Source: an uncultured bacterium
Lineage (GTDB): Bacteria; Patescibacteriota; Dojkabacteria; J137
DNA: 64,000 nt
Direction: 5' to 3'
Assembly (NCBI GenBank): GCA_963700155.1
Contig: OY969472.1
Location: forward strand, 517,059 to 581,058
The notes under the pieces are model-generated. The model saw only the letters and a list, made by a program, of their open reading frames with translations, was not told where the DNA came from and did no database searches. Position 1 is the stretch's first letter; each line of letters starts with the position of its first letter. This document shows, in pieces, positions 13,202-40,027 of the stretch. The position numbers and the translations under genes were made by a program.

Positions 13202-14431
13202 ATGTACAAAATTAATATGCGAAAAAAAATATTAATAAGCTTTATCTTTTTACAAGTTATTTTAATATTAGGCTCAGGTTTTGTAAGTGCTGATGATATT
13301 CAAAGCTTATCCACTCTTAATATTGACACTTCTATCACAGTAAAAGATACTACTGGTTTTGGAGATCCCACACAGATTATTGTTACTCCTGTTTTTATTA
13401 ATAATGGAACAGAAGTAAACACAGATAAATGGGTTAGAGGTATTTATTATTACACTATCGATAAATTAGGATTTCAAAACATTCCTTTTCATTATTTAAT
13501 TACAGAAGATGGTGGAGTTTTTAAAGGTAACAGCTCAGGTGATGAGAAAAAAATTAACATAGAAGGAATTGGCGATAATGCAGTTGTAGTTGGATATTTA
13601 AGTACAGATGAGGCGGGCGCTATAGCGCCCGCCTCAGAACAACCATTATCAAATCTGCTGCTAAATATAGCTAATCAAGATTCTATAAATCCTGAAAATA
13701 TATCAGCAAGTGGAATAAATTTTATTAAAGATAGTTCAAGCAATACAATAACAATTCAAAAAGCTAAAGTTGGGAGTGAGTGGAGTATAGGTATTAATAA
13801 AATTGTAAATAATATTAAAAATAAGTATTCTCCAATTACAAAAAAATATAGCGTTGAAATAACTCAGGTTACATTACCAACAAACGAAATAACACCTGGT
13901 GATGAAGCTACAGTCTCGATTAAAATAAAAAATACTGGTAAGAATGGATTTTATAGTGGTGCTAATTCTGAAATACTTTTAACAAAAGATAATGGAATTT
14001 CCAGCAACTTCTATATAAATAATACATGGCTCAGCCAAACTCAAACTGGAATAATGTCAGATGGTATATCTCTTCTCCCAGGTGAAGAAAAAGGGTTTGA
14101 TTTTAAAGTCAAAGCTCCACTGGCAACCGGAGATTATTCAGAAAACTTTATTTTGAAAACTGCAGGTGGAACTACTATAAAAAGTAACAAAAATATTGAG
14201 TTAAAAATTAAGTTAAAAAAAACTAATAAACAAATTATTGAGATAAAAACAAGCTATGATTATGTAAATGTAAGAAGCAAACCTTATGATTCAGCCCCTG
14301 TTTTAAGAAAAGTTACTGCAGGAGAAAGATATTTCCTTCTAGATCTAAATGAAGATACCCTTTGGGCAAAAATTGACTTAGGGGGTGGAGTAGAAGGTTA
14401 CCTTCCCGCTTGGGATTTGAAATATATTTAA
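13202..14431 (+). CDS. Secreted cell-wall-associated protein: PGRP/amidase_2-like domain plus C-terminal bacterial SH3 domain
   Basis: Signal peptide. GFQNIPFHYLITEDGGVFKG resembles the amidase_2 core, but the Zn-ligand His is not evident. C-terminal SH3b-like segment (YVNVRSKPY…GYLPAWDL). Confidence 0.45.
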   Translation: MYKINMRKKILISFIFLQVILILGSGFVSADDIQSLSTLNIDTSITVKDTTGFGDPTQIIVTPVFINNGTEVNTDKWVRGIYYYTIDKLGFQNIPFHYLITEDGGVFKGNSSGDEKKINIEGIGDNAVVVGYLSTDEAGAIAPASEQPLSNLLLNIANQDSINPENISASGINFIKDSSSNTITIQKAKVGSEWSIGINKIVNNIKNKYSPITKKYSVEITQVTLPTNEITPGDEATVSIKIKNTGKNGFYSGANSEILLTKDNGISSNFYINNTWLSQTQTGIMSDGISLLPGEEKGFDFKVKAPLATGDYSENFILKTAGGTTIKSNKNIELKIKLKKTNKQIIEIKTSYDYVNVRSKPYDSAPVLRKVTAGERYFLLDLNEDTLWAKIDLGGGVEGYLPAWDLKYI

Positions 14432-14442
14432 TAAAATTCTAA

Positions 14443-15930
14443 ATGCCAAAGGTAAAAATAATACTAATTATTGTTTTTGTGCTTTCTTTTTTTGTTAGTT
14501 TATTGCTTTTTCTAAAGTTTAATACTGTTGGATTTGAACAATCATTTAGGGCATATTTGGCATGGTATAACCCGACTGATGATAATTTAAAAAATTTCTA
14601 TGATATTTCGACTAGTCAAAATTTTTTATCTTCATTAAATTTTGAAAATCAGACTTTTAAAAACGGGACTGAATTGTTTGATTTCTTAAGGAATGAACAA
14701 AAGACAAACAATTCAGTCCCCGCAGTAGCTAAAGATAATCGAGACAGCAAAGTTCCAATTCAATTTGATGAAGAGAATATTGACGATACAAACCTTCCTC
14801 AGAAAATTACTTATGTATCACCTGGAGTTCTTGGATACTATGTATATAATTATGATCTAGTAAGATTCTCTCCTGATAAAAATACTCTTGAAAGCAAATA
14901 TTTAAATTTAAAAGAGAGTACTATTGATCCTATTTCAAAAAAGAATGTTACTGGTACAAAAGATTTAAAAACAGCAAAGACAGAAGTTAATAGTTATTTT
15001 AATAAACTTATAACTGATGTTGGCAATACAAACACATATGATGGCTTAACAAAAGAGAGTTTTAAAAAACTTGAAAACCACGAGGTTCTTGAAAATATTT
15101 CAGTTAATTCAATAAATTTTGTTGAAAAGAACTTTAAAGAAACTGAATTAAAAGATAACAAATTAATTATTGGAACGATAAATATTCACTTAGAAAACTG
15201 TTTTAAAGATTTTTCAGAAGATTTGAGTTTTTCTATCAATACCGGTGACATTCAAATTAATGACTTAAATGATTTTGTAAGTAACTTATGTAAAAAGCAA
15301 TTCGTTAAAGTTAATGGGGTAATTACCGGAACTTGTACTGATTGTACTTATTATCCAGCTGATAAATGGCATGCTTTAAGATCTGACTATACTCCCAAAA
15401 CTCAATTGATTGATTTCGCTCCGGGAGGACAATATATTAATACACAAGCATATAACGACTTTAAAGATTTATACAACGCAGCAAAAGCAGATGGAATATA
15501 TATTTATGTAACTTCAGGCTATCGTTCTTACAATACTCAAGTTGCGACATATCAAGGCTGGGTAAACACTGAACTTGCTGCTGGTTATTCTTTGTCTGAG
15601 GCAGAAGCTATTGCTAATACTTATTCAGCTCTTCCTGGGTACTCAGAGCACCAGCTTGGAACAGCGTTAGATTTAAATGGAGCAGGATGTGAAATTTCTG
15701 ATGGATATTGTTCAACAAACGAAACAATCTGGAACTGGCTTGCGGAAAATGCTTATAAATATGGGTTTGCACAATCATACCCTGAAGGAAAAGAGTCAAT
15801 TACAGGATATACCACCGAAAGGTGGCATTACAGGTGGATTGGGAAAGACTTAGCTGAAGAATATAAAAAAGCTGGAGGAGGAACAAAAATTACTTTAAAT
15901 GTATTTTTATTGAATAAAGGATTATATTAA
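14443..15930 (+). CDS. Membrane-anchored D,D-carboxypeptidase/peptidase M15 (VanY-like)
   Basis: N-terminal TM. C-terminal YVTSGYRSY…GYSEHQLGTALDL…W motifs fit the M15B Zn-peptidase family. Confidence 0.7.
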   Translation: MPKVKIILIIVFVLSFFVSLLLFLKFNTVGFEQSFRAYLAWYNPTDDNLKNFYDISTSQNFLSSLNFENQTFKNGTELFDFLRNEQKTNNSVPAVAKDNRDSKVPIQFDEENIDDTNLPQKITYVSPGVLGYYVYNYDLVRFSPDKNTLESKYLNLKESTIDPISKKNVTGTKDLKTAKTEVNSYFNKLITDVGNTNTYDGLTKESFKKLENHEVLENISVNSINFVEKNFKETELKDNKLIIGTINIHLENCFKDFSEDLSFSINTGDIQINDLNDFVSNLCKKQFVKVNGVITGTCTDCTYYPADKWHALRSDYTPKTQLIDFAPGGQYINTQAYNDFKDLYNAAKADGIYIYVTSGYRSYNTQVATYQGWVNTELAAGYSLSEAEAIANTYSALPGYSEHQLGTALDLNGAGCEISDGYCSTNETIWNWLAENAYKYGFAQSYPEGKESITGYTTERWHYRWIGKDLAEEYKKAGGGTKITLNVFLLNKGLY

Positions 15931-16670: not shown

Positions 16671-17582
16671 TTATCTAAAAATTAAGACTTGTCTAGCTCT
16701 AGCAGCAATTTGAAAGAGTTTATACCAAAAAGGTTCAATGATAAAATCGACTGTTTCTGCATAATTAATAACTCTCCCTCCAAAGCCAACTTTAAATCTT
16801 GAAAATCCATCATAAATTATCTCTCCACTTTCTGATTTACCAACTGATTTAATTCCCCATAAATCTAAACTTTTAAATCCATTTTGTTTTCCCCATTGGA
16901 TAATTTCCCAAACTAATGCATATGGAGCCATAACATTTTTAAATTCATCACTTGAACCTCCATATGGATAATAAATTACTTCTTCATATAAAAATAATAA
17001 CCAGGAGGCTAGTGGTTTTCCTTGAAAATATGCTGTAGCGATTGTTACAATTTTATCCGATTTTAAAGAATTCCATACTGTAGTTATATATTCTTTGCTT
17101 CGTCCATGGTAACCTTGACGAATAACAGTTGCTTCATAAAGTTTTAGGAATTCAGCAAAAGCATCTTCAGAGTCTGATATTTTAACTTCAACTCCTTTTT
17201 TGTGTGCTAAATTTAAGTTGTATCTATGCTTTTGCTTCATAGAGGCTAATAATTCTTCATCACTTATTGTTAAATTAATAGCTGTATTTTCTTGAAGATG
17301 AACTGGAATTCCTGATTTAAATTGATATTGAGAGGGAAGAGTTGCATTTTCAGAAATTAAATTTTCTGGGTCAATTGTTACATAAACACACTTAGCTTCT
17401 TTAGCTTTTCTATGCAGCTCTTCCCAATTTATCTTTGTTAAATCCGGACGTGGCATATATCCAACTGTTTTACCTATCAATGGTAGAGTAGTTGTTTGAA
17501 AAAAGTAACCTCCTACATCATAAACTTGATTTCCAAGACTCCTTTTACATTCCTTCCAGTATTTTGATTGTAAAAAATGCAT
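16671..17582 (-). CDS. FemAB-family peptidoglycan interpeptide-bridge aminoacyl transferase
   Basis: FemAB/GNAT-like pattern: …LDLWGIKS…FKVGFGG. 303 aa. Confidence 0.65.
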   Translation of the reverse strand: MHFLQSKYWKECKRSLGNQVYDVGGYFFQTTTLPLIGKTVGYMPRPDLTKINWEELHRKAKEAKCVYVTIDPENLISENATLPSQYQFKSGIPVHLQENTAINLTISDEELLASMKQKHRYNLNLAHKKGVEVKISDSEDAFAEFLKLYEATVIRQGYHGRSKEYITTVWNSLKSDKIVTIATAYFQGKPLASWLLFLYEEVIYYPYGGSSDEFKNVMAPYALVWEIIQWGKQNGFKSLDLWGIKSVGKSESGEIIYDGFSRFKVGFGGRVINYAETVDFIIEPFWYKLFQIAARARQVLIFR

Positions 17583-17583
17583 A

Positions 17584-18666
17584 TTAATATCTATCCTTTC
17601 TATAACTCCAGAAATCTATAGCTCTATGTAGTAAATATCTTAAATTATCATTATAAATTTCCATTGGACCAACATAATTAATTTCCTTTCCACCAAAACT
17701 TCTCTTGAATTCAGAAACCCCATTCATAGGATTTTTTGCCTTCTTGTTTTCAGGTAAAGATTTAGGCAGAATTCCCCACATATTATATTTTCTGAAACCT
17801 TTTTCTTTAGCATATTTCATTATCTCCCACTGTAAAAAATATGGAGAGCGGAGCTTTGACATAGTTCTATCAGATGTAGAAGCTCCATGAGTATAATAAG
17901 CTGTTTCATTATAGTAATTAATCAAAGCTCCGCTAATATATTTGGCTCTATATCTTGCTAAGAATATATCCGTCATTCCTTTAGGATTCAATGCATCAAA
18001 CTGCTTTTTGAAATATTCAAAATCATAGTTTCCAAAACCTTTTCTTTGAGTAGTTTCATTCATCAAATCTGAAAAGGCTTTAACTTCTTCAATTGTAGTA
18101 GCTTTTACTAATTCTAGTTCACTTCTTGATGACCGATTTATATTATATCTGGTCGAATCGCTCATTTTCGAGCGCAACTCATCCTCATTTTGATCTAAAT
18201 CTAACTCCCAGACATCTTTAGCTTGAGCAGGGGCGAGGGATGTTTTAAAGCCTAAATTCTTTAAATTTTCACTATATTTTTTAGGGAGCAGTGGATCAAA
18301 TCTGAAAAGAGTAAGGAAATTTTGGAATATATAATCCTGCATAAAGTTTTTTAACTGTGTAAAAAAATCTGCAAATTCTTGTTCATTCATAGGATCACCA
18401 ACTATAACTGGTCCATATGGAACATAAGCATATTTTATAAATTTCCTTCTGTAAATTTCTATATATAAAATTCCTATTTCATATTCTCTGTCGCCAACTT
18501 CAAGGATAATAAAATATTGATCAATTTCTTTTCCTAATGATTTTTGAAAATCGATCCAATTAATTGAAGAAAGAAATGAAGAATTTTCTGCTTCTAAATT
18601 TATTTTTTCCCATATTTGTTTTTTATCTTCACTATATTTTTCAAATTTTAGTAGCACAGAAATCAA
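17584..18666 (-). CDS. FemAB-family peptidoglycan interpeptide-bridge aminoacyl transferase (second paralog)
   Basis: YNMWGILP…EFKRSFGG. 360 aa. In tandem with the previous gene. Confidence 0.65.
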   Translation of the reverse strand: MISVLLKFEKYSEDKKQIWEKINLEAENSSFLSSINWIDFQKSLGKEIDQYFIILEVGDREYEIGILYIEIYRRKFIKYAYVPYGPVIVGDPMNEQEFADFFTQLKNFMQDYIFQNFLTLFRFDPLLPKKYSENLKNLGFKTSLAPAQAKDVWELDLDQNEDELRSKMSDSTRYNINRSSRSELELVKATTIEEVKAFSDLMNETTQRKGFGNYDFEYFKKQFDALNPKGMTDIFLARYRAKYISGALINYYNETAYYTHGASTSDRTMSKLRSPYFLQWEIMKYAKEKGFRKYNMWGILPKSLPENKKAKNPMNGVSEFKRSFGGKEINYVGPMEIYNDNLRYLLHRAIDFWSYRKDRY

Positions 18667-19396: not shown

Positions 19397-20542
19397 TTAA
19401 GCATCTCTTCTTAGAGGCATTAGAAGGTGAACAAATTTTGAATCATCTTTATCTTTAAAAACTGAAGCTGCCAATGGACCTTTAGTTTCAAAGATTATGG
19501 TGTCTCCTTTTATATGACTGACAACATCAGATATATATCGTAAATTGTAAGAAGCATTCAAATCACTTTCTCCATTTACAGAAGTCACTGGAATTAAAGT
19601 TTGATTTTCACCAACTTCAGCTACTACAGATTGCAACATAACAGTTGCGTTTTCTAGGTTGAGGTCAAAAAGTGTTTTGTATCCTAAATTACTTCTAGCA
19701 AAAGTATTAATGATCCTAATCGCAGATTCCAAATCTGACTTTTTGACCTCAAATGAATAGCTGAAAGAATCAGGCATTATCCTTTTATAATCAGGATAAG
19801 GTCCCTCTAATAATCTTATGCTGAATTCTATCTCTTCAAATTTAAAAATAACTTGGGATTTACTTTGACCTAAATAAACTTCAATACTATCAACATCAAC
19901 ATAATCTTGAATAATTTTAACCAATTCGCTTAAATATCTTGCCGGAACAATAACTTGTTCTGTTGGATATTCATTAACATCTTTTACTTTTGCACTACGC
20001 TTTGAAAGTCTAAAACCATCTAAACCAATAAAATTGATCTCACTTTTTTCTTTATCATATTCAAATAAAATTCCACTTTGCTGTATTTTTCCAGCTGATA
20101 AATCTGTTGATGAAGCAAAAATTACTTTATCCATTGATGCTAAAAATTCCTTTGCTGAAATTACAAACAGTGGAGTTTCTGAAACTTCTGGTAAAACAGG
20201 GAATTCGGTTGCCGGGATAGTAGTAAAATTAGCTTTTGAGTTTTCTGTTACAACATCTACTACATTATCATTCAAACTTAGTTCAACGTTATCTCCTACT
20301 GCTGCTGCAACAAAATCTGCAATGTATTTTGCTGATACAGTAACGCTTCCTTCTTGTTCAACTACTCCAGGTATCCACACATTTATCCCCATATCTAAGT
20401 TTGTTGCTGATAGTTTTAAACCATTCTTATTAACATCTAAAAGAACGTTTGAAAGTACTGGTATATTTGGTTTTAAACTAACAGCTCTACTTGTATATTG
20501 TAATGACTTTGAAAGGTTATCTCTGTTTAGTTTGATTTTCAT
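19397..20542 (-). CDS. dnaN: DNA polymerase III beta sliding clamp
   Basis: N-terminus MKIKLNRDNLSKSLQYTSRAVS…PVLSNVLL is typical DnaN. Three-domain length of 381 aa. Confidence 0.85.
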   Translation of the reverse strand: MKIKLNRDNLSKSLQYTSRAVSLKPNIPVLSNVLLDVNKNGLKLSATNLDMGINVWIPGVVEQEGSVTVSAKYIADFVAAAVGDNVELSLNDNVVDVVTENSKANFTTIPATEFPVLPEVSETPLFVISAKEFLASMDKVIFASSTDLSAGKIQQSGILFEYDKEKSEINFIGLDGFRLSKRSAKVKDVNEYPTEQVIVPARYLSELVKIIQDYVDVDSIEVYLGQSKSQVIFKFEEIEFSIRLLEGPYPDYKRIMPDSFSYSFEVKKSDLESAIRIINTFARSNLGYKTLFDLNLENATVMLQSVVAEVGENQTLIPVTSVNGESDLNASYNLRYISDVVSHIKGDTIIFETKGPLAASVFKDKDDSKFVHLLMPLRRDA

Positions 20543-20856
20543 ATCTAAATATAATTTTTAATAAGTAGTTATTTTTAGTTATAGTGTCTGTTGATATGTG
20601 TATATGTTTTAATAATAGCTTATAGAACTTACATTTTCAATGATTTTGAGGTGTGAATAAGTGATGTGGATTAAAAATTAAGCATTTTCGTTGATCGTTA
20701 ATTAAGTATTTGATTATATCCAATTTTTATTGTGATGAGTTTTTGTAGAACTTTTGGGAAAGTTTTCTAGTATCCTATTTTGTTAAGATTTTTAGCGTGT
20801 GGAAAACTGAATAATATTACTGTACAAGAATTATATTAATATTCTATAATCCATAC
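20543..20856. promoter_or_regulatory. AT-rich non-coding region with DnaA-box-like 9-mers (candidate oriC/DUE or dnaN promoter region)
   Basis: tgtgaataa, tgtggatta and tgtggaaaa each lie within 1 mismatch of TGTGGATAA. The region is 314 bp, extremely AT-rich and non-coding. Confidence 0.35.
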
Positions 20857-21795
20857 ATGTTTAATCCTATAGACAATTTAAAATTAAAAGAAGTTGAAAA
20901 TTCAGAAAATAAAACTATTGGAGAAATTGCACAGAAACTTTCTAATTTAATGAGTAATAAATATTTTTTTTACTTTTTTTCTTCTCATTATCACTCTCCA
21001 CAATTAGATATTCATAGAGTTGATGACTTAAATTCTTTTTTATATAAATTTAAAGGTGTTTTTAGAGACATGAGTTCCTATCTTAAAAAGGATAAGGATT
21101 TTATAAATCTATTTCTTGAATTATTAAATTTTTTAGTTAAAGAAAAAGAATTTTATGAAGCTGTTAAATTACTAGATGAAACATTTGGATTTAATTTTCT
21201 ACACTATGAATGGATACAAGAAATTTATAAAAAAGCAATGGATTCTGAAGAGTATTTCCAAGCTTATTACATAATAAAATTAATTGAAAATAGAATTAAG
21301 TTGTTAATGATTACATTTCCAAATGATTCACCACAAGAACTTTTAGAAAAAGAGTATAGAGAATGTTTAGGAATTTTATTGAATAACTTTCTTGATGATA
21401 CTTCTGCAATAACTGAAAGTGAATTATTCGAAAAAACAAAAACATTACCGAAAATTTTAGCAATATTGAAGAATGATGAAATACTAGGTTTTAATATTTT
21501 GAAATCTCGAGACTATACTCCATATTTCATGGATATAATTTTATATGATTTTATTAAAAGAATTGTAGATTTAACTTGGACATTTAGAGGTGAAATATAT
21601 GATATACAATTTGATTCTGAAAATTTGCCTGACATATATTATCTTTATAATATTTCTACAAATACTAGTAAGTATCTTACATTACCAGAAAATAAAATGG
21701 TTCATATTTCACGAGTGGCTGAATATTTAGAACTAAAATTAAAAGATATTGAGTTCATTTTTATTGAAGATAAAAAGCAAGATGTGGAATCTTAA
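20857..21795 (+). CDS. Hypothetical protein (312 aa) inserted between dnaN and dnaA
   Basis: ORF only. No motif recognised. Confidence 0.4.
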   Translation: MFNPIDNLKLKEVENSENKTIGEIAQKLSNLMSNKYFFYFFSSHYHSPQLDIHRVDDLNSFLYKFKGVFRDMSSYLKKDKDFINLFLELLNFLVKEKEFYEAVKLLDETFGFNFLHYEWIQEIYKKAMDSEEYFQAYYIIKLIENRIKLLMITFPNDSPQELLEKEYRECLGILLNNFLDDTSAITESELFEKTKTLPKILAILKNDEILGFNILKSRDYTPYFMDIILYDFIKRIVDLTWTFRGEIYDIQFDSENLPDIYYLYNISTNTSKYLTLPENKMVHISRVAEYLELKLKDIEFIFIEDKKQDVES

Positions 21796-21800
21796 ACTTA

Positions 21801-22523
21801 TTAATTTTCTAAACTACTATAATATGGTGTTTTTTCTAGTAATTCTGGAGGTAGAATAGATAATAAAGATAAATCATTATTAATTCTATAATCATATAGA
21901 TAAATATTATAGGAATCTGTATTCAAACCGTCTTTTCTGTATCGAATATATATATCAATGTGTGCAAGTTTTAAAGTTCCATCAAGATCAAGTTCTTCTG
22001 TAAAAATAAACTTAACTTGCTCAATATTTTCTTCATTGACTCCTATTTTGTAGTTATCAACAAAAAATTTTTTTACAGCTGGAGTAAATCTGGCTGAATA
22101 TTCTACGACCTTAAAGCCATGTATATTAGTATTATTCTTATCTATAAGCTCATGAATTTGGTTTAAAGTAGTAACATTAATAATAGCTGGCTCGAAAAAA
22201 ACTCCTTCTGTATCTGTTTGTTCAATAATTAATGATCCATTTTCGTCAAATTTAAAAACAGCTAGATTATTTCCAAAATAATACTCAAAATGAATATCAG
22301 AAATTGTTAAATCTGAATTCATCTCGCTCCTAGATAAATTTATTTCTCTATAAAGTATATTAAAAAGGGTATATTGAGTTGTCGGCAGTTTAAAAGATTT
22401 TCGAAAATCTACGCCTGACGAAGCTATTCCAGATAAAATACTTAAAATTAAATAAAGAGATAATATCCTTTTTAGAATAAAAGGACGGTTAAAATTGTTT
22501 TGAATATCATCAATTTTATCCAT
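21801..22523 (-). CDS. Hypothetical membrane-anchored protein immediately downstream of dnaA
   Basis: N-terminal TM helix. Lies 5 nt after the dnaA stop. Confidence 0.4.
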   Translation of the reverse strand: MDKIDDIQNNFNRPFILKRILSLYLILSILSGIASSGVDFRKSFKLPTTQYTLFNILYREINLSRSEMNSDLTISDIHFEYYFGNNLAVFKFDENGSLIIEQTDTEGVFFEPAIINVTTLNQIHELIDKNNTNIHGFKVVEYSARFTPAVKKFFVDNYKIGVNEENIEQVKFIFTEELDLDGTLKLAHIDIYIRYRKDGLNTDSYNIYLYDYRINNDLSLLSILPPELLEKTPYYSSLEN

Positions 22524-22528
22524 TAAAT

Positions 22529-23938
22529 TTATTCTACATCCTCCGTTACAGCGGCATTATCTTGAATATTTGTTATTACTTGTGCAACTTGAGAATTAAA
22601 TCCATCCTGAATCATCATTTTGCTTTTAATCTTATCAAGTGCATGAAGCACAGTTGTATGATCAGTCCTTTTTAAATATTTTGCGACTTCTTCAAGTTTA
22701 TAACTAAATTCTTCTCTTAAGATATACATTGCAACTTGTCTTGCCAAAGCCAACTCCTTTGTTCTTCTCGGACCTTTTAAATCTTTTACAGTAACGCCAA
22801 ATGATTTAGCAACTTCTCTAATAACTTGAGGCACTTTAATCTGGGATCTTTTTGTTTGCGAATCTTTTCCAATTGTATGTGCAACTTCTTCTAATGTTAA
22901 ATCTCCATTCGGTTTCATTTGATTAAATAAAGCTACTTTTTGAAGTGCCCCTTCAAGCTCTCTTACATTATCCGAAATATTTCTAGCCAAGTACTCTAAA
23001 ATTGGCATTTTTAAATTATAGCCGGAGTTTTCAGATTTTCTGTATAAGATTGCAAGGCGAGTTTCATAATCCGGATTTGAAATATCAACTACCATCCCGC
23101 CTTGCATTCTAGTTCTTAATCTACTTTCCATATTTTGAATATCCTCAGGTCTTCTATCGGCAATTAAAATAATTTGTTTACCAGCATTATAAAGTTCATT
23201 GAAAGTATTGAAGAATTCTTCTTGAGTGTGAACCCATTTTGAAATAAGTTGCATATCATCAATAATAAGCATATCCGTTGGTCTATATTTAGCTCTAAAT
23301 TTCTCCATTTGCCCTGTTTTAATTCCTTTTACCATCTCATTCAAAAATCCTTCAGATGGTGTATAAATTATTTTTTTACTAGGATTCCTTTCTAAAATTG
23401 ATCTACCAATTGCTTGTGCCAAGTGTGTTTTCCCAACACCGGTTTTCCCATGAATAAATAAAGGATTGTATGATTGACCAGGTCTTTCAATAATTGCTAA
23501 AGCTGCAGCATGTGCAATTTTATTTGCATTTCCTACAATATAATTTGACATTGTATATTTAGGATTTAATCCGGATTTAGTAACAGCTTCAATTACATTA
23601 CCCATAAATCCATTCTCAACATCAAGTAAAGGTGAGGATGATATATTTTTTGGTTCATTTTCAGCTTCATCTTCTTTTTGTTCATGAGTAACTTCAAAAA
23701 CTGGATTTAAAACATCTCCATAAACATAACTAATTGTGTCTTTAATCATTTTTTCGTATCTATTTTTTATCCAATCAGAAATGAAGGGATTAGGTACTCC
23801 GATTATTGCTTTATTACCATCTATTTTAACTAATCTAGTTTCTTGAAAATATGTTTTAAATTGAGCAGGTGCGTCCAGTTTAATCTCTATTTGAGCTAGG
23901 GTCGTTTTCCAGAGCTGTTTTTCATCTCTAATTTTCAT
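22529..23938 (-). CDS. dnaA: Chromosomal replication initiator DnaA
   Basis: AAA+ Walker A/B (GKTGVGKTHL, DDMQ), C-terminal DnaA-box binding helix. The likely start is the internal Met (MKIRDEKQLWKTTLAQ), whereas the ORF track extends to 23992. Confidence 0.9.
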   Translation of the reverse strand: MKIRDEKQLWKTTLAQIEIKLDAPAQFKTYFQETRLVKIDGNKAIIGVPNPFISDWIKNRYEKMIKDTISYVYGDVLNPVFEVTHEQKEDEAENEPKNISSSPLLDVENGFMGNVIEAVTKSGLNPKYTMSNYIVGNANKIAHAAALAIIERPGQSYNPLFIHGKTGVGKTHLAQAIGRSILERNPSKKIIYTPSEGFLNEMVKGIKTGQMEKFRAKYRPTDMLIIDDMQLISKWVHTQEEFFNTFNELYNAGKQIILIADRRPEDIQNMESRLRTRMQGGMVVDISNPDYETRLAILYRKSENSGYNLKMPILEYLARNISDNVRELEGALQKVALFNQMKPNGDLTLEEVAHTIGKDSQTKRSQIKVPQVIREVAKSFGVTVKDLKGPRRTKELALARQVAMYILREEFSYKLEEVAKYLKRTDHTTVLHALDKIKSKMMIQDGFNSQVAQVITNIQDNAAVTEDVE

Positions 23939-24020
23939 AGGTTTAAAGTAATGGTTAAAGAATATATACTTAAATGAAATAAGTATTTGCAAAAGCTATT
24001 TTTTTAGTGCTGAATTTTTT

Positions 24021-32572: not shown

Positions 32573-33685
32573 ATGAAAAAAAAGATATTAATAATAATTG
32601 CTGATATAGGAAATGGTCATAAATCTGCAGCTGAAGCTTTAACTTCAGTGTTTAATAATAAATATAAAGACGACTTCGAAGTAAAAGCTATAGATATTTT
32701 TAAAGAATCAGAGATAGAGCCTTTTGATAGTGCAGATATATCGTATAAATTTCTTTCTCAGAACAGAGCATATGAAAGCATTAGTAATTTAACTTGGAAA
32801 TTTACTAATACAGGACTAGGATTTGATATATATAAAAGTTATTTCTTAGGCAGGATTTTCGCATCAGCAGAAAAAATAATTAAGAGCGAAAATCCTGACC
32901 TTGTAATTTCAGCATATCCATTAACTTGTTCAATAGTTCAAAGAATGAAACTCCTTGGTGCTAATTTTAAATATGCAGTAGTTATTACAGACTTGATGAC
33001 AATTCATAGGTCTTGGGCTGATCCAACCGCAAATTTAATTACTTGCCCAACTTCTGATGCTGTAAGCACTTTAATAAAATATGGAGTAAATATTAATAAA
33101 ATAATATATCCATTATTTCCGCTAAAACCTGAACTAGAAAATTATAGGGCTAAAGAGATTGTAGTTGACGAACTGAAGTTGAAAGCTAGTAAACCAATTA
33201 TATTAATAACAGGTGGAGCATTAGGAACAAAAGCTATAAAAAAGGCAATAGATAAGCTTGCTGAGAATAAAAACTTACAATTGATTGTTGTTGCCGGAAG
33301 ATTAGATAGCTTTAAAACTGAATTAGAAAATAAATATAAGGGTCAGAAAAATATAAAAATCTTAGGTTTTGTAAATAACATGTATGATTATTTGAATGCT
33401 TGTGATATCTTGATCGGAAAGCCAGGTGCAACAACAGTAATGGAAGTTCAGTTGTTTGATAAAAGGGCTATTTTTACTAGATATATTGGAGAACATGATT
33501 CTGGCAATGTTAAATACGCATTAAGAGATCCTAAGATTAGATATATTGAAGATGATTGGGATAAGATTCAGAAATATGTAGATGAGCTTTTGGATTTTAA
33601 TCCTAGAGAAACTGAATTCATCCCTAAAAGAAGTTATGATGAGAGCGAAAAGATTGTAGAGGAGATAGTAAAATTAATAAACTAA
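32573..33685 (+). CDS. GT28 MGDG-synthase/UgtP-like diacylglycerol glycosyltransferase (glycolipid synthase)
   Basis: N-terminal IIADIGNGHKSAAEAL is typical of the UgtP/MGDG synthase family. Its C-terminal domain is MurG-like. Confidence 0.6.
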   Translation: MKKKILIIIADIGNGHKSAAEALTSVFNNKYKDDFEVKAIDIFKESEIEPFDSADISYKFLSQNRAYESISNLTWKFTNTGLGFDIYKSYFLGRIFASAEKIIKSENPDLVISAYPLTCSIVQRMKLLGANFKYAVVITDLMTIHRSWADPTANLITCPTSDAVSTLIKYGVNINKIIYPLFPLKPELENYRAKEIVVDELKLKASKPIILITGGALGTKAIKKAIDKLAENKNLQLIVVAGRLDSFKTELENKYKGQKNIKILGFVNNMYDYLNACDILIGKPGATTVMEVQLFDKRAIFTRYIGEHDSGNVKYALRDPKIRYIEDDWDKIQKYVDELLDFNPRETEFIPKRSYDESEKIVEEIVKLIN

Positions 33686-36239: not shown

Positions 36240-37046
36240 GTGCTAATAAAAATTAAGACAATCTTTATGATAGACATTGCAGAAATTAATGGATTACCTC
36301 TAAGGTTCGATCTCGAAAATGAGAGATTTGTTCCTAATGAAGACATAGTTTATGACAATGAATCTTATATCCAACTTTCAGACCTCGAACCGATACTTTT
36401 AAATAAATATTTAAGATACCCAGAAAAAGTTTATTGGTATTATAAAAATATTCATGATACTAATGTTCCCCAAGAAAACGATGTTTCTTATGACATTATA
36501 TATTTACCATTCGGACTTTTAGGAATTGAATTTATAAAAACTCATATTTTTTCAAGTAGCTACTGTGAAAATAAATGTGATGCTGTAATTGAGGTTTTGT
36601 ATGGTAATCTAACAGTTGTAATTCAAAAAAATAAAGAAAAAGAAGATCCCTATGAATTTGAAACTTATGTAGAAGCTATAAATATTATAACTTTACGAAA
36701 AGGCGAGAAACTAGTTATTCCTACTGGTGTTTATTATACATTTGTTAATACAGGAGTTGTTCCTGTAATATTTTCTAAAATTGGATCTAAAACCCATATA
36801 CAAACCGATTATTCTATAATGAAAAGAGAGAGAGGTTTAGCATATTTCCTGATTTCTAAGAATGCTAAAATTGAGATTGTAGCAAATCCAAGGTATAAGA
36901 TAGATTGTAAATTAAAATGTGCGTCCCTGAGGAGATTGATGAGTGAAGAAGATTCACCTTATATCATGAAAGAGACACATTCTTCTAGAAACTCGCTATA
37001 TAAACTTTTTGCAGAAAATATACTCTCAGAAGTACTTGCGGTATAA
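36240..37046 (+). CDS. Cupin-domain protein
   Basis: β-barrel-like motif …ITLRKGEKLVIPTGVYYTFVNTG…. Confidence 0.4.
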   Translation: MLIKIKTIFMIDIAEINGLPLRFDLENERFVPNEDIVYDNESYIQLSDLEPILLNKYLRYPEKVYWYYKNIHDTNVPQENDVSYDIIYLPFGLLGIEFIKTHIFSSSYCENKCDAVIEVLYGNLTVVIQKNKEKEDPYEFETYVEAINIITLRKGEKLVIPTGVYYTFVNTGVVPVIFSKIGSKTHIQTDYSIMKRERGLAYFLISKNAKIEIVANPRYKIDCKLKCASLRRLMSEEDSPYIMKETHSSRNSLYKLFAENILSEVLAV

Positions 37047-38015: not shown

Positions 38016-38660
38016 ATGATTTTATTATTCATTGGACCATCAGGAAGCGGAAAAGACACTCAAGCAGAATTTCTTGTAAAAGAGAATGCTTTTGAAAGAA
38101 TCTCAACTGGAGATTTAATTCGAGATATTTCAGAAGGAGACCATCCTGCACAAAAAGTTATCAGGCAATCAATGAACGAAGGCTTTTTAGCAGATAATTT
38201 TGTCTTTGGCTTACTTCAAGTTTACTTATCTCATAATGAAAAAGAAAATATTATTCTTTCTGGAGCTGTAAGAAGGGAATCTCAGGTAGAACTTTTAGAT
38301 AGTACTTTATTAAATGTAAAAAGGTCTCTAGATAAAGTAGTTTATTTTGAACTTTCAGATGAAGAAGCTATAAAAAGAATGTCAGGTAGACTTTATTGTC
38401 CAAAAGACGGCTCGAATTATCATTTAATCTTCAATCCGCCAAAACAAGTTGATACTTGCGATATTTGTGGAGGACCTTTAAAGCGAAGAGAAGATGATAA
38501 TCCAGATGCAATTAAAGCTAGACTGTATGATTTTCATAAAGATAACGATAAAATAATAGAGATGTATGAAAAAAGAGGAATATTATTAAAAATAGATGCT
38601 TCAAAAAGTATCGAAGAAGTACATCATGAAGTTGTAACTAGCTTAAATCTTAAAAAGTAA
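38016..38660 (+). CDS. adk: Adenylate kinase (long lid with Zn-binding Cys4)
   Basis: P-loop GPSGSGKDTQ. Lid domain CPKDGSNYH…CDICGG. 214 aa. Confidence 0.9.
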   Translation: MILLFIGPSGSGKDTQAEFLVKENAFERISTGDLIRDISEGDHPAQKVIRQSMNEGFLADNFVFGLLQVYLSHNEKENIILSGAVRRESQVELLDSTLLNVKRSLDKVVYFELSDEEAIKRMSGRLYCPKDGSNYHLIFNPPKQVDTCDICGGPLKRREDDNPDAIKARLYDFHKDNDKIIEMYEKRGILLKIDASKSIEEVHHEVVTSLNLKK

Positions 38661-38662
38661 AA

Positions 38663-40027
38663 TTGAGAGTTTTAAAATATTATTATCGAGTGCTTAGATC
38701 CCTTATAGCTTCACTGCTTTATAGAAATCCATCTTCAAGTTTGATGATAATTGGAGTTACTGGAACTTCTGGAAAGTCTACTACATCAGCAATGGTTTAT
38801 CATATTTTAAAAGAGCAAGGTTTTCGGGTCGGATTAATTTCGACAGTTGGCGTTATAGCAGGAGAAAAGAATATTGATTCAGGATTCCATGTGACGACTC
38901 CGGATCCGATTGCCCTACAAAAATATTTAAAAATGATGGTTGATCAAGGTGTAGAGTATGTAGTTTTAGAAGTTTCATCGCATGCATTGGACCAAGGTAG
39001 GCTGGGTTTACTGAAGTTTGACTTCTCTGTATTTACAAATATTAAAGATGATCATTTAGACTGGCACAAGACATGGGAAAATTATGCAGGAGCAAAATTT
39101 AAATTAGTAGAAAAGCTTAGAGATACAGGAACATTAATAATAAACAAAGATGATAGAAGATCGTATGAGTTTATAAAAAATAAGATAGAAGCAACTGGAA
39201 ATAGAGGTGATGGATTTTCACTTGTTGAATATTCAATTGAGGGAACAATTTCTGATATAAAAGAAAGTTTTAGCGGAATTGATTTCAGCTTTTTTAGCGA
39301 GAATTCTCATTTAAATTTGATTGGGAAATACAATCTTTCGAATTTCTTAGCAGCAGCAGCTGTGGCGCAGGTTTTAGGTATTTCTAATAAAGAAATTTCA
39401 AACTCAATAAAAAACTTTGAAGGTCTTGAAGGAAGAATGCAAGTAATGCAAAACGATCCATTTACTGTGATTGTAGATTTTGCACATAATGCTGATTCGT
39501 TAGAAAAATCTTTAGAATCAATAAGAAGGATTAAAGATGAAGAGTCAAGGGTTATTTGTGTATTTGGATCGGCGGGTCTTCGGGATCGACAAAAACGTTT
39601 TGATATGGGAAAAGTTTCAGGGAATATGGCAGATATAACTATTGTAACTGCCGAAGACCCGCGAACAGAAAGCTTATATGAAATTAACTCTAAAATTATT
39701 GAGGGGGCGGAAGAGTCTGGTGGAACTTTAGTAAAAAGATTTGCAACTCATGAAGAATATCTAGATTATCTTAAAGAAAATGGAATAGACTCTTCCGCCC
39801 AAGTAGATTCTTCTTCGGTTCAAGTTATCGCAATAAGTTCTAAATCAATTTTTGCTTTTGATTATCCTGAAGTTCAAAATAGAATGGATGCGATAGCATT
39901 TGCAATAAAACTCGTAAAACCCAACGATATTGTTATTACTGAAGGGAAAGGTCATGAAAAGTCTTTAGCTTTTGGTACAACTGAATATCCATACACTGAT
40001 CAAGCCGCAGTCCAATCTGCATTATAA
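38663..40027 (+). CDS. Mur-ligase family protein, MurE-like central and C-terminal domains without the usual N-terminal UDP-binding domain
   Basis: P-loop GVTGTSGKSTT at residue ~33, GRMQ, DFAHN, and FGSAGLRDRQKRFDMG…TAEDPRTE (compare MurE GGDRDKGKR…TSDNPRSE). C-terminal GKGHE. The gene starts 3 nt after adk. Confidence 0.6.
   Translation: MRVLKYYYRVLRSLIASLLYRNPSSSLMIIGVTGTSGKSTTSAMVYHILKEQGFRVGLISTVGVIAGEKNIDSGFHVTTPDPIALQKYLKMMVDQGVEYVVLEVSSHALDQGRLGLLKFDFSVFTNIKDDHLDWHKTWENYAGAKFKLVEKLRDTGTLIINKDDRRSYEFIKNKIEATGNRGDGFSLVEYSIEGTISDIKESFSGIDFSFFSENSHLNLIGKYNLSNFLAAAAVAQVLGISNKEISNSIKNFEGLEGRMQVMQNDPFTVIVDFAHNADSLEKSLESIRRIKDEESRVICVFGSAGLRDRQKRFDMGKVSGNMADITIVTAEDPRTESLYEINSKIIEGAEESGGTLVKRFATHEEYLDYLKENGIDSSAQVDSSSVQVIAISSKSIFAFDYPEVQNRMDAIAFAIKLVKPNDIVITEGKGHEKSLAFGTTEYPYTDQAAVQSAL

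What the first reader, a model, noticed from the sequence alone, without database searches (positions are those of the whole stretch)
38663..40027. MurE-like ligase lacking the N-terminal UDP-binding domain
The P-loop sits at residue ~33, and the gene starts 3 nt after adk, so no N-terminal domain can be encoded. The central and C-terminal domains are MurE-like (GRMQ, DFAHN, TAEDPRTE, GKGHE). Mur ligases without domain 1 (MurT, CapB, FolC) act on non-UDP substrates. This enzyme may add an amino acid to lipid-linked or other precursors, or it may work with a separate UDP-binding partner.
Basis: partly seen in the sequence, partly recalled or inferred. Interest (0 to 1): 0.5.

Follow-up and report, generated by a model that had tools for sequence, protein, structure and literature searches.

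The report
MurE cell-wall ligase without uridine-binding domain
This gene encodes a real, conserved version of the cell-wall enzyme MurE that has lost its whole first domain, and the same short form turns out to be the standard MurE in large parts of the ultra-small "CPR" bacteria, apparently without having been described.

Summary
ORF 38663-40027 (+) encodes a 454-aa Mur ligase that matches MurE models only from the domain 1/2 boundary onward. An in-frame TAA lies 3 codons upstream, and adk fills the space before it. It is not an artefact. More than 100 Dojkabacteria homologues share the build. About half of the nearest 150 database representatives are also short, including Microgenomates and Saccharibacteria. 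Related Chloroflexota enzymes keep domain 1.

The idea of a non-UDP substrate is only weakly supported. In relatives, the short gene sits in the MurE slot of cell-wall gene clusters: murL-murD-murC-murE-mraY, murD-murC-murE-mraY-ddl/murF, or rsmH-ftsI-murE-murC. The neighbouring MurC, MurD and MurF keep their N-terminal domains. The domain-2 residues that hold MurNAc-dipeptide are invariant.

[quoted passage not shown] It probably adds L-Lys or L-Orn, because it carries EDPR instead of DNPR and FemX-like genes are nearby.

Open point: I could not find the rest of the pathway in core Dojkabacteria, and reviews say this lineage lacks peptidoglycan synthesis. An orphan or salvage role is therefore not excluded.

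Verdict: a new variant of a known kind, of moderate interest.

The parts
38663..40027 (+). murE-like gene, 454 aa, two-domain Mur ligase (stop codon included)
   Evidence: ORF list and sequence. Pfam Mur_ligase_M plus Mur_ligase_C only. TIGR01085 scores 378.9 bits, above the 257.3 cutoff. AlphaFold model has pLDDT 89.6, and its best PDB folds are MurE with TM 0.75-0.79.
38651..38653 (+). in-frame TAA, 3 codons upstream of the start; rules out an N-terminal extension
   Evidence: Read directly from the sequence and from the frame translations.
38016..38660 (+). adk (adenylate kinase); its stop ends 2 nt before the murE start, so the two are probably translationally coupled
   Evidence: Pfam ADK plus ADK_lid. 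The adk-murE junction is conserved in L002, L003, L089 and L090, and the two genes overlap by 4 nt in L090.
38663..38752 (+). residues 1-30: N-terminal helix and linker. This is the remnant of the domain 1/2 connecting helix and carries the short-form motif [LI]-K-x-x-[YFW]-[HR] (L4-K5-Y6-Y7-Y8-R9, 38672-38689)
   Evidence: The AF2 model shows a helix at residues 2-19. Position-specific comparison of 161 short and 61 long forms. Alignment to residues 85 onward of 4bub.
38753..38779 (+). ATP-binding P-loop GVTGTSGKS (residues 31-39)
   Evidence: Read from the sequence. T33, G34, S36, G37 and K38 are invariant in 32 homologues.
38894..39001 (+). domain-2 acceptor-binding residues: T78/T79 (38894-38899), S105 (38975-38977), R113 (38999-39001)
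   Evidence: They align to M. tuberculosis MurE T195, T196, S222 and R230, which are named as substrate-site residues in PMC6736417. T78, S105 and R113 are invariant in alignment A1 and T79 is at least 90% conserved.
39095..39097 (+). K145, the equivalent of the carbamylated catalytic lysine of Mur ligases
   Evidence: Invariant in A1. It aligns with the conserved A-K of T. maritima, M. tuberculosis and E. coli MurE. The carbamylated Lys-219 of S. aureus MurE is described in PMC3829189.
39653..39664 (+). EDPR motif (residues 331-334) in place of the mDAP-specific DNPR
   Evidence: Read from the sequence. E331, D332 and R334 are invariant in A1 and P333 is at least 90% conserved. EDPR occurs in nearly all of the 150 nearest representatives. 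The roles of the DNPR residues are given in PMC3829189.
39725..39868 (+). insertion of about 45 aa in domain 3 (residues ~355-402), specific to the Dojkabacteria group
   Evidence: This stretch is unaligned against all PDB MurE sequences. R359, F399 and D400 are invariant. The AF2 model shows a strand, a helix and a low-confidence loop here.

Best explanation
[quoted passage not shown] It is a natural two-domain form that has lost the N-terminal uridine-binding domain.

Catalysis should be the ordinary Mur-ligase chemistry. The P-loop and the carbamylated lysine K145 activate the gamma-carboxyl of D-Glu as an acyl phosphate. The amino acid held by domain 3 then attacks it. The acceptor is held by the conserved domain-2 residues (T78, T79, S105, R113) that contact the MurNAc-dipeptide in solved MurE structures. 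Only the contacts to uridine and part of the diphosphate are lost.

A short, basic and aromatic N-terminal extension of the linker helix (K5, Y8, R9) is specific to the short forms. It may partly replace those lost contacts; this is inferred, not shown.

The added amino acid is probably L-lysine or L-ornithine, not meso-diaminopimelate. The motif is EDPR instead of DNPR, so an acidic residue replaces the Asn that binds the distal carboxylate of mDAP.

The same architecture is the normal MurE of Dojkabacteria, many Microgenomates and Saccharibacteria, so the domain was lost in ancestors of these lineages rather than in this genome.

Shown: the anatomy, its conservation, its distribution and the gene context in relatives. 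Inferred: the substrate, the amino-acid specificity and the role of the N-terminal helix.
For: - Family assignment. The murE model scores above its curated cutoff, with the next-best families far lower: cyanophycin synthetase 150 bits, murC 113, murD 112. The best sequence and fold matches in the PDB are all MurE.
- Conservation. More than 100 homologues of 435-468 aa have the same two-domain build; the 559-562 aa ones only add a C-terminal ASCH domain. Seventy-four columns are invariant in 32 sequences, including the catalytic and acceptor-binding residues.
- Distribution. 69 of the nearest 150 representatives at 50% clustering are short. Of 80 genome loci, 36 are short: Daviesbacteria, Gottesmanbacteria, Woykebacteria, Beckwithbacteria, Levyibacteriota, Collierbacteria, Roizmanbacteria, a Woesebacteria MAG (L043) and Saccharibacteria. 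The other 44 are full-length, mostly Chloroflexota.
- Gene context. L004 carries murD, murC, short murE, mraY and ddl, followed by murF on the opposite strand. L087/L088 carries murL-like, murD, murC, short murE and mraY. The P0173 locus carries mraZ, rsmH, a PBP, short murE, a full-length Mur ligase, murA, mraY, ftsW and murG. Among 43 short-form loci, murC lies just downstream in 33 and a class-B PBP just upstream in 28.
- Neighbouring ligases. MurC and MurD match their models from position 1-2, and MurF has about 138 residues before its P-loop. The intermediates before and after the MurE step are therefore handled as UDP compounds.
- Fusions. Some short MurEs are fused to an NTP-transferase, which again links them to nucleotide-sugar metabolism.
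- Structural precedent. [quoted passage not shown]
- Amino-acid specificity. The best PDB sequence match is the T. maritima L/D-lysine ligase, which has DDPR. The window also has two FemAB-family genes whose best match is a lysine-N6-alanyltransferase (FemX), plus a VanY D-Ala-D-Ala carboxypeptidase.
Against: - No enzyme assay exists for any short form.
- In this genome the gene is not in a mur cluster. It lies after adk. The 64-kb window holds no murC, murD, murF, murL, mraY or ddl.
- Two MraY searches seeded from the closest cluster-bearing relatives returned no protein labelled Dojkabacteria, and none on the long contigs that carry the adk-murE arrangement.
- Two reviews, both citing earlier work I could not read, state that WS6/Dojkabacteria lack peptidoglycan synthesis.
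- I could not examine the remaining 1.08 Mb of the source genome. A second, full-length murE or a missing pathway are both untested.
- Loss of the uridine site should weaken substrate binding unless something compensates for it.
Confidence: 0.6

Rival explanations
1. Orphan or repurposed ligase. Core Dojkabacteria have lost most of the peptidoglycan precursor pathway. The domain-1-less MurE then works on an acceptor without a UDP handle, for example MurNAc- or anhydroMurNAc-L-Ala-D-Glu or free L-Ala-D-Glu scavenged from a host cell. Alternatively, it builds another gamma-glutamyl-linked product.
For: The uridine-binding domain is gone. In core Dojkabacteria the gene has left the mur cluster and is coupled to adk. 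No MraY attributable to these genomes appeared in two searches. Reviews say WS6 cannot make peptidoglycan. Other Mur-family ligases without domain 1, such as MurT and FolC, use non-UDP substrates (established knowledge; MurT in PMC6113224).
Against: The same short architecture sits in complete mur/dcw clusters in relatives. Acceptor-binding and catalytic residues are identical between cluster-borne and adk-linked versions, which argues for one shared substrate. The MraY searches list only 120 hits each and cannot prove absence. FemX-like and VanY genes in the window suggest that stem peptides are handled.
Confidence: 0.22
2. Split or assisted enzyme. UDP binding is supplied in trans, either by a separately encoded domain-1 protein or by the N-terminal domain of a partner ligase (MurC, MurD or MurF) in a Mur multi-enzyme complex that hands the precursor on.
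For: Mur ligases have been proposed to form complexes, and natural MurE-MurF fusions exist (PMC10214165). murC or murD lies directly next to the short murE in most loci.
Against: The domain-1 HMM finds no stand-alone copy in the window or in 42 other short-form loci, while it detects all 44 long forms. No conserved small neighbouring ORF accompanies the short forms. In this genome the neighbour is adk, not a Mur ligase.
Confidence: 0.1
3. Artefact or decaying gene: a truncated pseudogene, an assembly error or a mis-called frame.
For: The start is a TTG, and the public gene call differs from mine (ATG at M28).
Against: An identical sequence occurs in an independent assembly (L001). More than 100 homologues have the same length and N-terminus. 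In 31 of the 36 short-form genome loci, an upstream in-frame stop leaves fewer than 60 codons before the P-loop. The structure prediction is confident.
Confidence: 0.02

Closest known systems
[quoted passage not shown] T. maritima 4BUB, S. aureus 4C12, E. coli 1E8C, M. tuberculosis 2WTZ)
   Same: The central ATPase domain and the C-terminal domain. The P-loop, the carbamylated-Lys position, the TTP, SSH and QxR acceptor-binding motifs, and the DHLD-H and GKGHE motifs. The fold (TM 0.75-0.79). The position in mur/dcw clusters in relatives.
   Different: The whole N-terminal domain is missing (about 85-95 residues, the uridine nucleoside site). EDPR replaces DNPR; T. maritima has DDPR and S. aureus has DNPA. 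A 45-aa insertion sits in domain 3. In this genome the gene follows adk.
Full-length EDPR-type MurE of Chloroflexota and a few CPR (loci L012, L017, L024-L086)
   Same: The same subfamily, 33-40% identical to the Microgenomates short-form query over domains 2 and 3, with GVTGTDGKT and TAEDPRTE motifs.
   Different: They keep a recognisable domain 1 of 105-140 residues before the P-loop.
MurT (lipid II isoglutaminyl synthase subunit, works with GatD)
   Same: A Mur-ligase-family protein that lacks the UDP-binding N-terminal domain.
   Different: MurT has a DUF1727 C-terminal domain and a GatD partner, and it acts on lipid II. Here the MurT models score 44.8 bits against an 800-bit cutoff, the C-terminal domain is the ordinary Mur_ligase_C, and no GatD gene was seen next to it.
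FolC/FPGS, PgsB/CapB and the cyanophycin synthetase M domain
   Same: A two-domain Mur-ligase core without a UDP-binding domain.
   Different: All score far below their family cutoffs: folC 71.5 against 162.65, and cyanophycin synthetase 150.6 against 850. The sequence is specifically MurE-like.

Membership tests
MurE (TIGR01085 / EC 6.3.2.7, 6.3.2.13) | Scores above the curated family cutoff of the murE model | tested here: met
   TIGR01085 scores 378.9 bits against a cutoff of 257.3. The equivalog-level models are not reached (NF001126: 360.9 against 373), as expected when about 90 residues are missing.
MurE (TIGR01085 / EC 6.3.2.7, 6.3.2.13) | Three-domain architecture with an N-terminal uridine-binding domain 1 | tested here: not met
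   The model match starts at profile position 70. An in-frame stop lies 3 codons upstream. The domain-1 HMM is negative in the window.
MurE (TIGR01085 / EC 6.3.2.7, 6.3.2.13) | ATP-binding P-loop TGTxGKT and the carbamylated lysine | tested here: met
   TGTSGKS at residues 33-39. K145 is invariant and aligns with the conserved A-K of solved MurEs.
MurE (TIGR01085 / EC 6.3.2.7, 6.3.2.13) | Domain-2 residues that bind the MurNAc-dipeptide (M. tuberculosis T195, T196, S222, R230) | tested here: met
   They correspond to T78, T79, S105 and R113 here. T78, S105 and R113 are invariant and T79 is at least 90% conserved across 32 homologues.
MurE (TIGR01085 / EC 6.3.2.7, 6.3.2.13) | DNPR motif (defines the meso-DAP-adding enzymes only) | tested here: not met
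   EDPR at residues 331-334. This argues against mDAP specificity, not against MurE membership.
MurE (TIGR01085 / EC 6.3.2.7, 6.3.2.13) | Gene lies in a mur/dcw cluster in the MurE position | tested here: inconclusive
   Met in relatives. Not met in this window, where the gene follows adk and no other mur gene is present.
MurE (TIGR01085 / EC 6.3.2.7, 6.3.2.13) | [quoted passage not shown] | not testable with these tools
   Needs an enzyme assay.
MurT/GatD | MurT model match, DUF1727 C-terminal domain and an adjacent gatD gene | tested here: not met
   The MurT models score 44.8 bits against a cutoff of 800. Pfam shows Mur_ligase_C, not DUF1727. The neighbours are adk and a NUDIX gene.
FolC/FPGS, cyanophycin synthetase, Mpl, MurC/D/F | Scores above the respective curated cutoffs | tested here: not met
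   Scores against cutoffs: folC 71.5 / 162.65, cyanophycin synthetase 150.6 / 850, mpl 48.2 / 388.7, murC 112.8 / 335.1, murD 111.6 / 211.95, murF 93.7 / 288.6.

The most novel reading that the evidence does not exclude
In core Dojkabacteria the precursor pathway is largely gone. In that case this uridine-domain-less MurE, kept under strong constraint and coupled to adk, would be an orphan ligase. It would extend host-derived MurNAc-peptide or dipeptide fragments that lack UDP, as part of a salvage route by which an epibiotic cell builds or repairs its wall from its host's material.
Probability: 0.18. Interest if true: 0.8.

Novelty: new variant of a known kind. Interest (0 to 1): 0.5.

Why it matters
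MurC, MurD, MurE and MurF are textbook three-domain enzymes, and the N-terminal domain is described as the UDP-substrate-binding module. Here a whole radiation of bacteria (Dojkabacteria, many Microgenomates, Saccharibacteria) appears to run the MurE step without it.

If confirmed, three things follow:
- It would define the minimal functional MurE and show how much the uridine contacts contribute.
- Inhibitors aimed at the uracil pocket of MurE would be expected to miss these organisms.
- It would give a simple sequence marker, and a testable case for substrate hand-over between Mur ligases or for precursor salvage in host-dependent bacteria.

There is also a practical point. Public gene calls for this protein start too late, and databases name it a DAP ligase although its motif argues against DAP.

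Tried and rejected
- **Upstream extension or frameshift.** Rejected. There is an in-frame TAA at 38651-38653, stops in all frames across adk, and adk itself is complete.
- **Second Mur ligase or other wall genes in the window.** tblastn with the protein itself and with MurC, MurD, MurF, MurL, MraY and Ddl from relatives found only this gene.
- **Stand-alone domain 1.** HMM search of all six-frame ORFs of the window and 86 loci: negative in every short-form locus and positive in 44 long-form controls. Neighbour clustering found no conserved small partner ORF.
- **Rest of the pathway in the source genome.** The 1.14-Mb contig could not be read. Two MraY protein searches returned only relatives. 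Cluster look-ups gave no organism names. This question stays open.
- **One loss or several.** The neighbour-joining tree puts the short forms in two groups separated by long forms, but it is too weakly resolved to decide.
- **Prior description.** Full-text searches found no account of a MurE without domain 1. The primary source for "WS6 lacks peptidoglycan synthesis" was not available.
- **The 370-aa GT28-like protein at 32573-33685.** Checked as a possible MurG. It matches diglucosyl-diacylglycerol synthases instead.

Full report
**1. What is in the sequence**

The ORF at 38663-40027 (+) is real. It is 454 aa with a TTG start, and it begins 3 nt after the last base of the adk stop codon at 38660. 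In its own frame a TAA lies at 38651-38653, three codons upstream. The two other frames across adk are interrupted by many stops. adk itself is a complete adenylate kinase with its lid domain. An N-terminal domain of about 90 residues therefore cannot be encoded upstream, whether by a non-canonical start or by a single frameshift.

**2. What is missing**

- Pfam detects only the Mur ligase middle domain (32-235) and C-terminal domain (257-370).
- The NCBIfam murE model TIGR01085 scores 378.9 bits against a curated cutoff of 257.3, but it aligns only from profile position 70 of 472.
- Against solved structures, residue 9 pairs with residue 85 of T. maritima MurE and residue 13 with residue 94 of E. 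coli MurE. The protein thus starts a few residues before the domain 1/2 boundary. That boundary is given as residue 88-90 for E. coli (my recollection of Gordon et al. 2001) and as residue 98/99 for S. aureus (PMC3829189).
- An AlphaFold model built on 32 homologues is confident (pLDDT 89.6). Residues 2-19 form a helix that leads into the P-loop strand. Foldseek places the model on MurE structures, with TM 0.75-0.79 normalised to the query and lower values normalised to the longer targets.

**3. Not an artefact, and not confined to this genome**

The identical sequence occurs in an independent assembly (L001). A protein search returned more than 100 homologues at 46-66% identity. Nearly all are 435-468 aa, and all carry only the two domains. 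Those with names are labelled Candidatus Dojkabacteria. The three longer ones (559-562 aa) carry a C-terminal ASCH domain, not an N-terminal one.

An exhaustive search of representatives clustered at 50% identity showed that about half of the nearest 150 are short, with the P-loop at residue 27-56. The other half are full-length.

A scan of species-representative genomes with a Microgenomates-type short-form profile gave 80 loci. I tested these with an HMM built from 52 domain-1 sequences.

- 44 loci are full-length. These are all the Chloroflexota loci plus three others: a Woesebacteria MAG (L012), a "Patescibacteria group" MAG (L017), and a MAG titled Gammaproteobacteria that is probably mislabelled (L019).
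- 36 loci lack domain 1. Named ones are Daviesbacteria (including a complete chromosome, CP066688.1), Gottesmanbacteria, Woykebacteria, Beckwithbacteria, Levyibacteriota, Collierbacteria, Roizmanbacteria, a Woesebacteria MAG (L043) and Saccharibacteria, including an oral MAG. In 31 of them an in-frame stop leaves fewer than 60 codons before the P-loop.

The window's gene is therefore one member of a large class of domain-1-less MurE proteins in the Candidate Phyla Radiation. I have not seen this class described.

**4. What the short form does: evidence from context**

Gene context in relatives is the strongest evidence.

| Locus | Relation to the window protein | Gene order around the short murE |
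|---|---|---|
| L004 | 48% identical | murD, murC, short murE, mraY, ddl, then murF on the opposite strand |
| L087/L088 | 52% identical | RimK-like ATP-grasp, murL-like epimerase, murD, murC, short murE, mraY |
| P0173 locus | Microgenomates-type | mraZ, rsmH, small ORF, class-B PBP, ydjM, short murE, full-length Mur ligase, murA, NTP-transferase, mraY, ftsW, murG |

Across 43 short-form loci, a full-length murC lies just downstream in 33, a class-B PBP just upstream in 28, and rsmH nearby in 21. The murC genes score 406-423 bits, above the equivalog cutoff.

In these clusters MurC and MurD match their models from position 1-2, and MurF has about 138 residues before its P-loop. Only MurE has lost its first domain. 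The enzymes before and after the MurE step keep their nucleotide-binding domains, so the intermediate passing through the short MurE should be the ordinary UDP-linked one.

Two short MurEs are fused at the C-terminus to an NTP-transferase. This again links the protein to nucleotide-sugar metabolism.

**5. What the short form does: evidence from the protein**

- The domain-2 residues named as substrate-site residues of M. tuberculosis MurE are T195, T196, S222 and R230 (PMC6736417). They align with T78, T79, S105 and R113 here. T78, S105 and R113 are invariant in 32 homologues and T79 is at least 90% conserved.
- What is lost is the uracil pocket and the Gly83-Ser84 diphosphate loop of domain 1.
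- The S. aureus structure paper states that domain 1 holds the uridine nucleoside site, while the product is predominantly bound by domain 2. A two-domain enzyme is therefore plausible, at the cost of affinity for the nucleotide end.
- I compared the 30 residues before the P-loop in 161 short and 61 long forms. The short forms share a motif, [LI]-K-x-x-[YFW]-[HR], at positions -27 to -22. Here it is L4-K5-Y6-Y7-Y8-R9. The long forms have V-x-[DN]-S-R instead. These basic and aromatic residues might partly replace the lost contacts. That is an inference only.
- The same motif shows that the TTG at 38663 is the true start. The public gene call from ATG M28 (P0001, 427 aa) removes the helix.

**6. 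Amino-acid specificity**

The meso-DAP-adding enzymes carry DNPR, in which the Asn and Arg bind the distal carboxylate. Here, and in almost all of the 150 nearest representatives, the motif is EDPR. The best PDB sequence match is the T. maritima L/D-lysine ligase, which has DDPR.

The window also holds two tandem FemAB-family genes whose best, though weak, match is the lysine-N6-alanyltransferase FemX. It also holds a VanY D-Ala-D-Ala carboxypeptidase. I therefore expect L-Lys, or L-Orn as reported for some Chloroflexota (my recollection), rather than the DAP named in database annotations.

**7. What remains open**

In the window, and in all core Dojkabacteria contexts I could read (L002, L003, L089, L090), murE is not in a mur cluster. 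It lies in a conserved block: dnaJ, cupin-type GPI, rhomboid, adk, murE. The 64-kb window has no other mur gene.

Two MraY searches seeded from the cluster-bearing relatives returned those relatives and then Microgenomates at about 40% identity. They returned nothing labelled Dojkabacteria, and nothing on the long contigs that carry adk-murE. Two reviews state that WS6/Dojkabacteria lack peptidoglycan synthesis. I could not read the primary source.

The lists are cut at 120 hits, so this is not proof of absence. I could not read the rest of the 1.14-Mb genome, and a metagenome scan was uninformative. The catalytic and acceptor residues are identical in cluster-borne and adk-linked versions, which argues for one shared function. 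An orphan or salvage role in core Dojkabacteria still cannot be excluded, and I give it about 0.2.

**8. Rivals and verdict**

- A split enzyme with domain 1 supplied in trans is unlikely. The domain-1 HMM and the neighbour clustering are both negative.
- Hand-over within a Mur ligase complex is possible but untested.
- MurT, FolC, PgsB, cyanophycin synthetase and Mpl are excluded as family assignments by their model scores.
- Full-text searches found no description of a MurE without domain 1.

I rate this a new variant of a known kind. The enzyme family and its probable job are ordinary. The systematic absence of the substrate-nucleotide domain across major CPR lineages is unexpected and easy to test. 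Interest: 0.5.

Noticed in passing
window 16671-17582 (-) and 17584-18666 (-): Two tandem FemAB-family (aminoacyl-tRNA-dependent peptidyl transferase) genes. Their best, weak, NCBIfam match is FemX, the UDP-MurNAc-pentapeptide-lysine N6-alanyltransferase. This suggests branched stem peptides on a Lys-type residue.
   Followed up: partly
window 13202-14431 (+) and 14443-15930 (+): A protein with a C-terminal SH3_3 domain lies next to a 495-aa VanY-type D-Ala-D-Ala carboxypeptidase. These could act on the cell's own wall or on a host's wall.
   Followed up: no
window 19397-23992 (-): dnaN and dnaA lie close together, with a 240-aa ORF without family matches between them. The window probably spans the chromosomal replication origin.
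   Followed up: no
L087 4419-5813 (with L087 2294-4418): A MurL-like UDP-MurNAc-L-Ala-L-Glu epimerase (NF041275, 252.6 bits, below the 700 cutoff, nearly full-length match) sits directly upstream of murD in a Dojkabacteria-group relative. A RimK-like ATP-grasp gene and a 7TM transglutaminase-like gene precede it. This hints that these bacteria make the D-Glu residue by the MurD2/MurL route known from Xanthomonas.
   Followed up: partly
proteins P0052, P0078, P0117 (ASCH) and P0148, P0238 (NTP_transferase): Some short MurEs carry C-terminal fusions, either to an ASCH domain (a fold known to bind pyrimidine nucleosides) or to a nucleotidyl transferase. The ASCH fusion could conceivably replace the lost uridine-binding module.
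   Followed up: partly
window 39725-39868 (residues ~355-402): An insertion of about 45 aa in domain 3, found only in the Dojkabacteria-group enzymes, with invariant R359, F399 and D400. It is predicted as an extra strand and helix plus a disordered Ser/Asp-rich loop. Its function is unknown.
   Followed up: partly
window 38663-38743; public protein P0001: The public gene call starts at ATG M28 (427 aa). It cuts off the conserved N-terminal helix. The TTG at 38663 fits the homologues.
   Followed up: yes
loci L007, L019, L020, L023, L025, L034, L036, L038, L047, L057, L058, L061: MAGs titled "uncultured Gammaproteobacteria" carry Microgenomates-type murE genes, all short-form except L019, several with a second Mur ligase close downstream. 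The organism labels are probably wrong.
   Followed up: no
protein searches seeded with L004 11352-12326 and P0282: No MraY attributable to core (adk-murE type) Dojkabacteria appeared in two searches, although more than 90 MurE clusters of that type exist. Either mraY is absent or it is unusually divergent in this lineage.
   Followed up: partly
window 36240-37046 (+): A cupin-type glucose-6-phosphate isomerase-like gene (Pfam GPI, weak match) is part of the conserved dnaJ, GPI, rhomboid, adk, murE block of Dojkabacteria.
   Followed up: no
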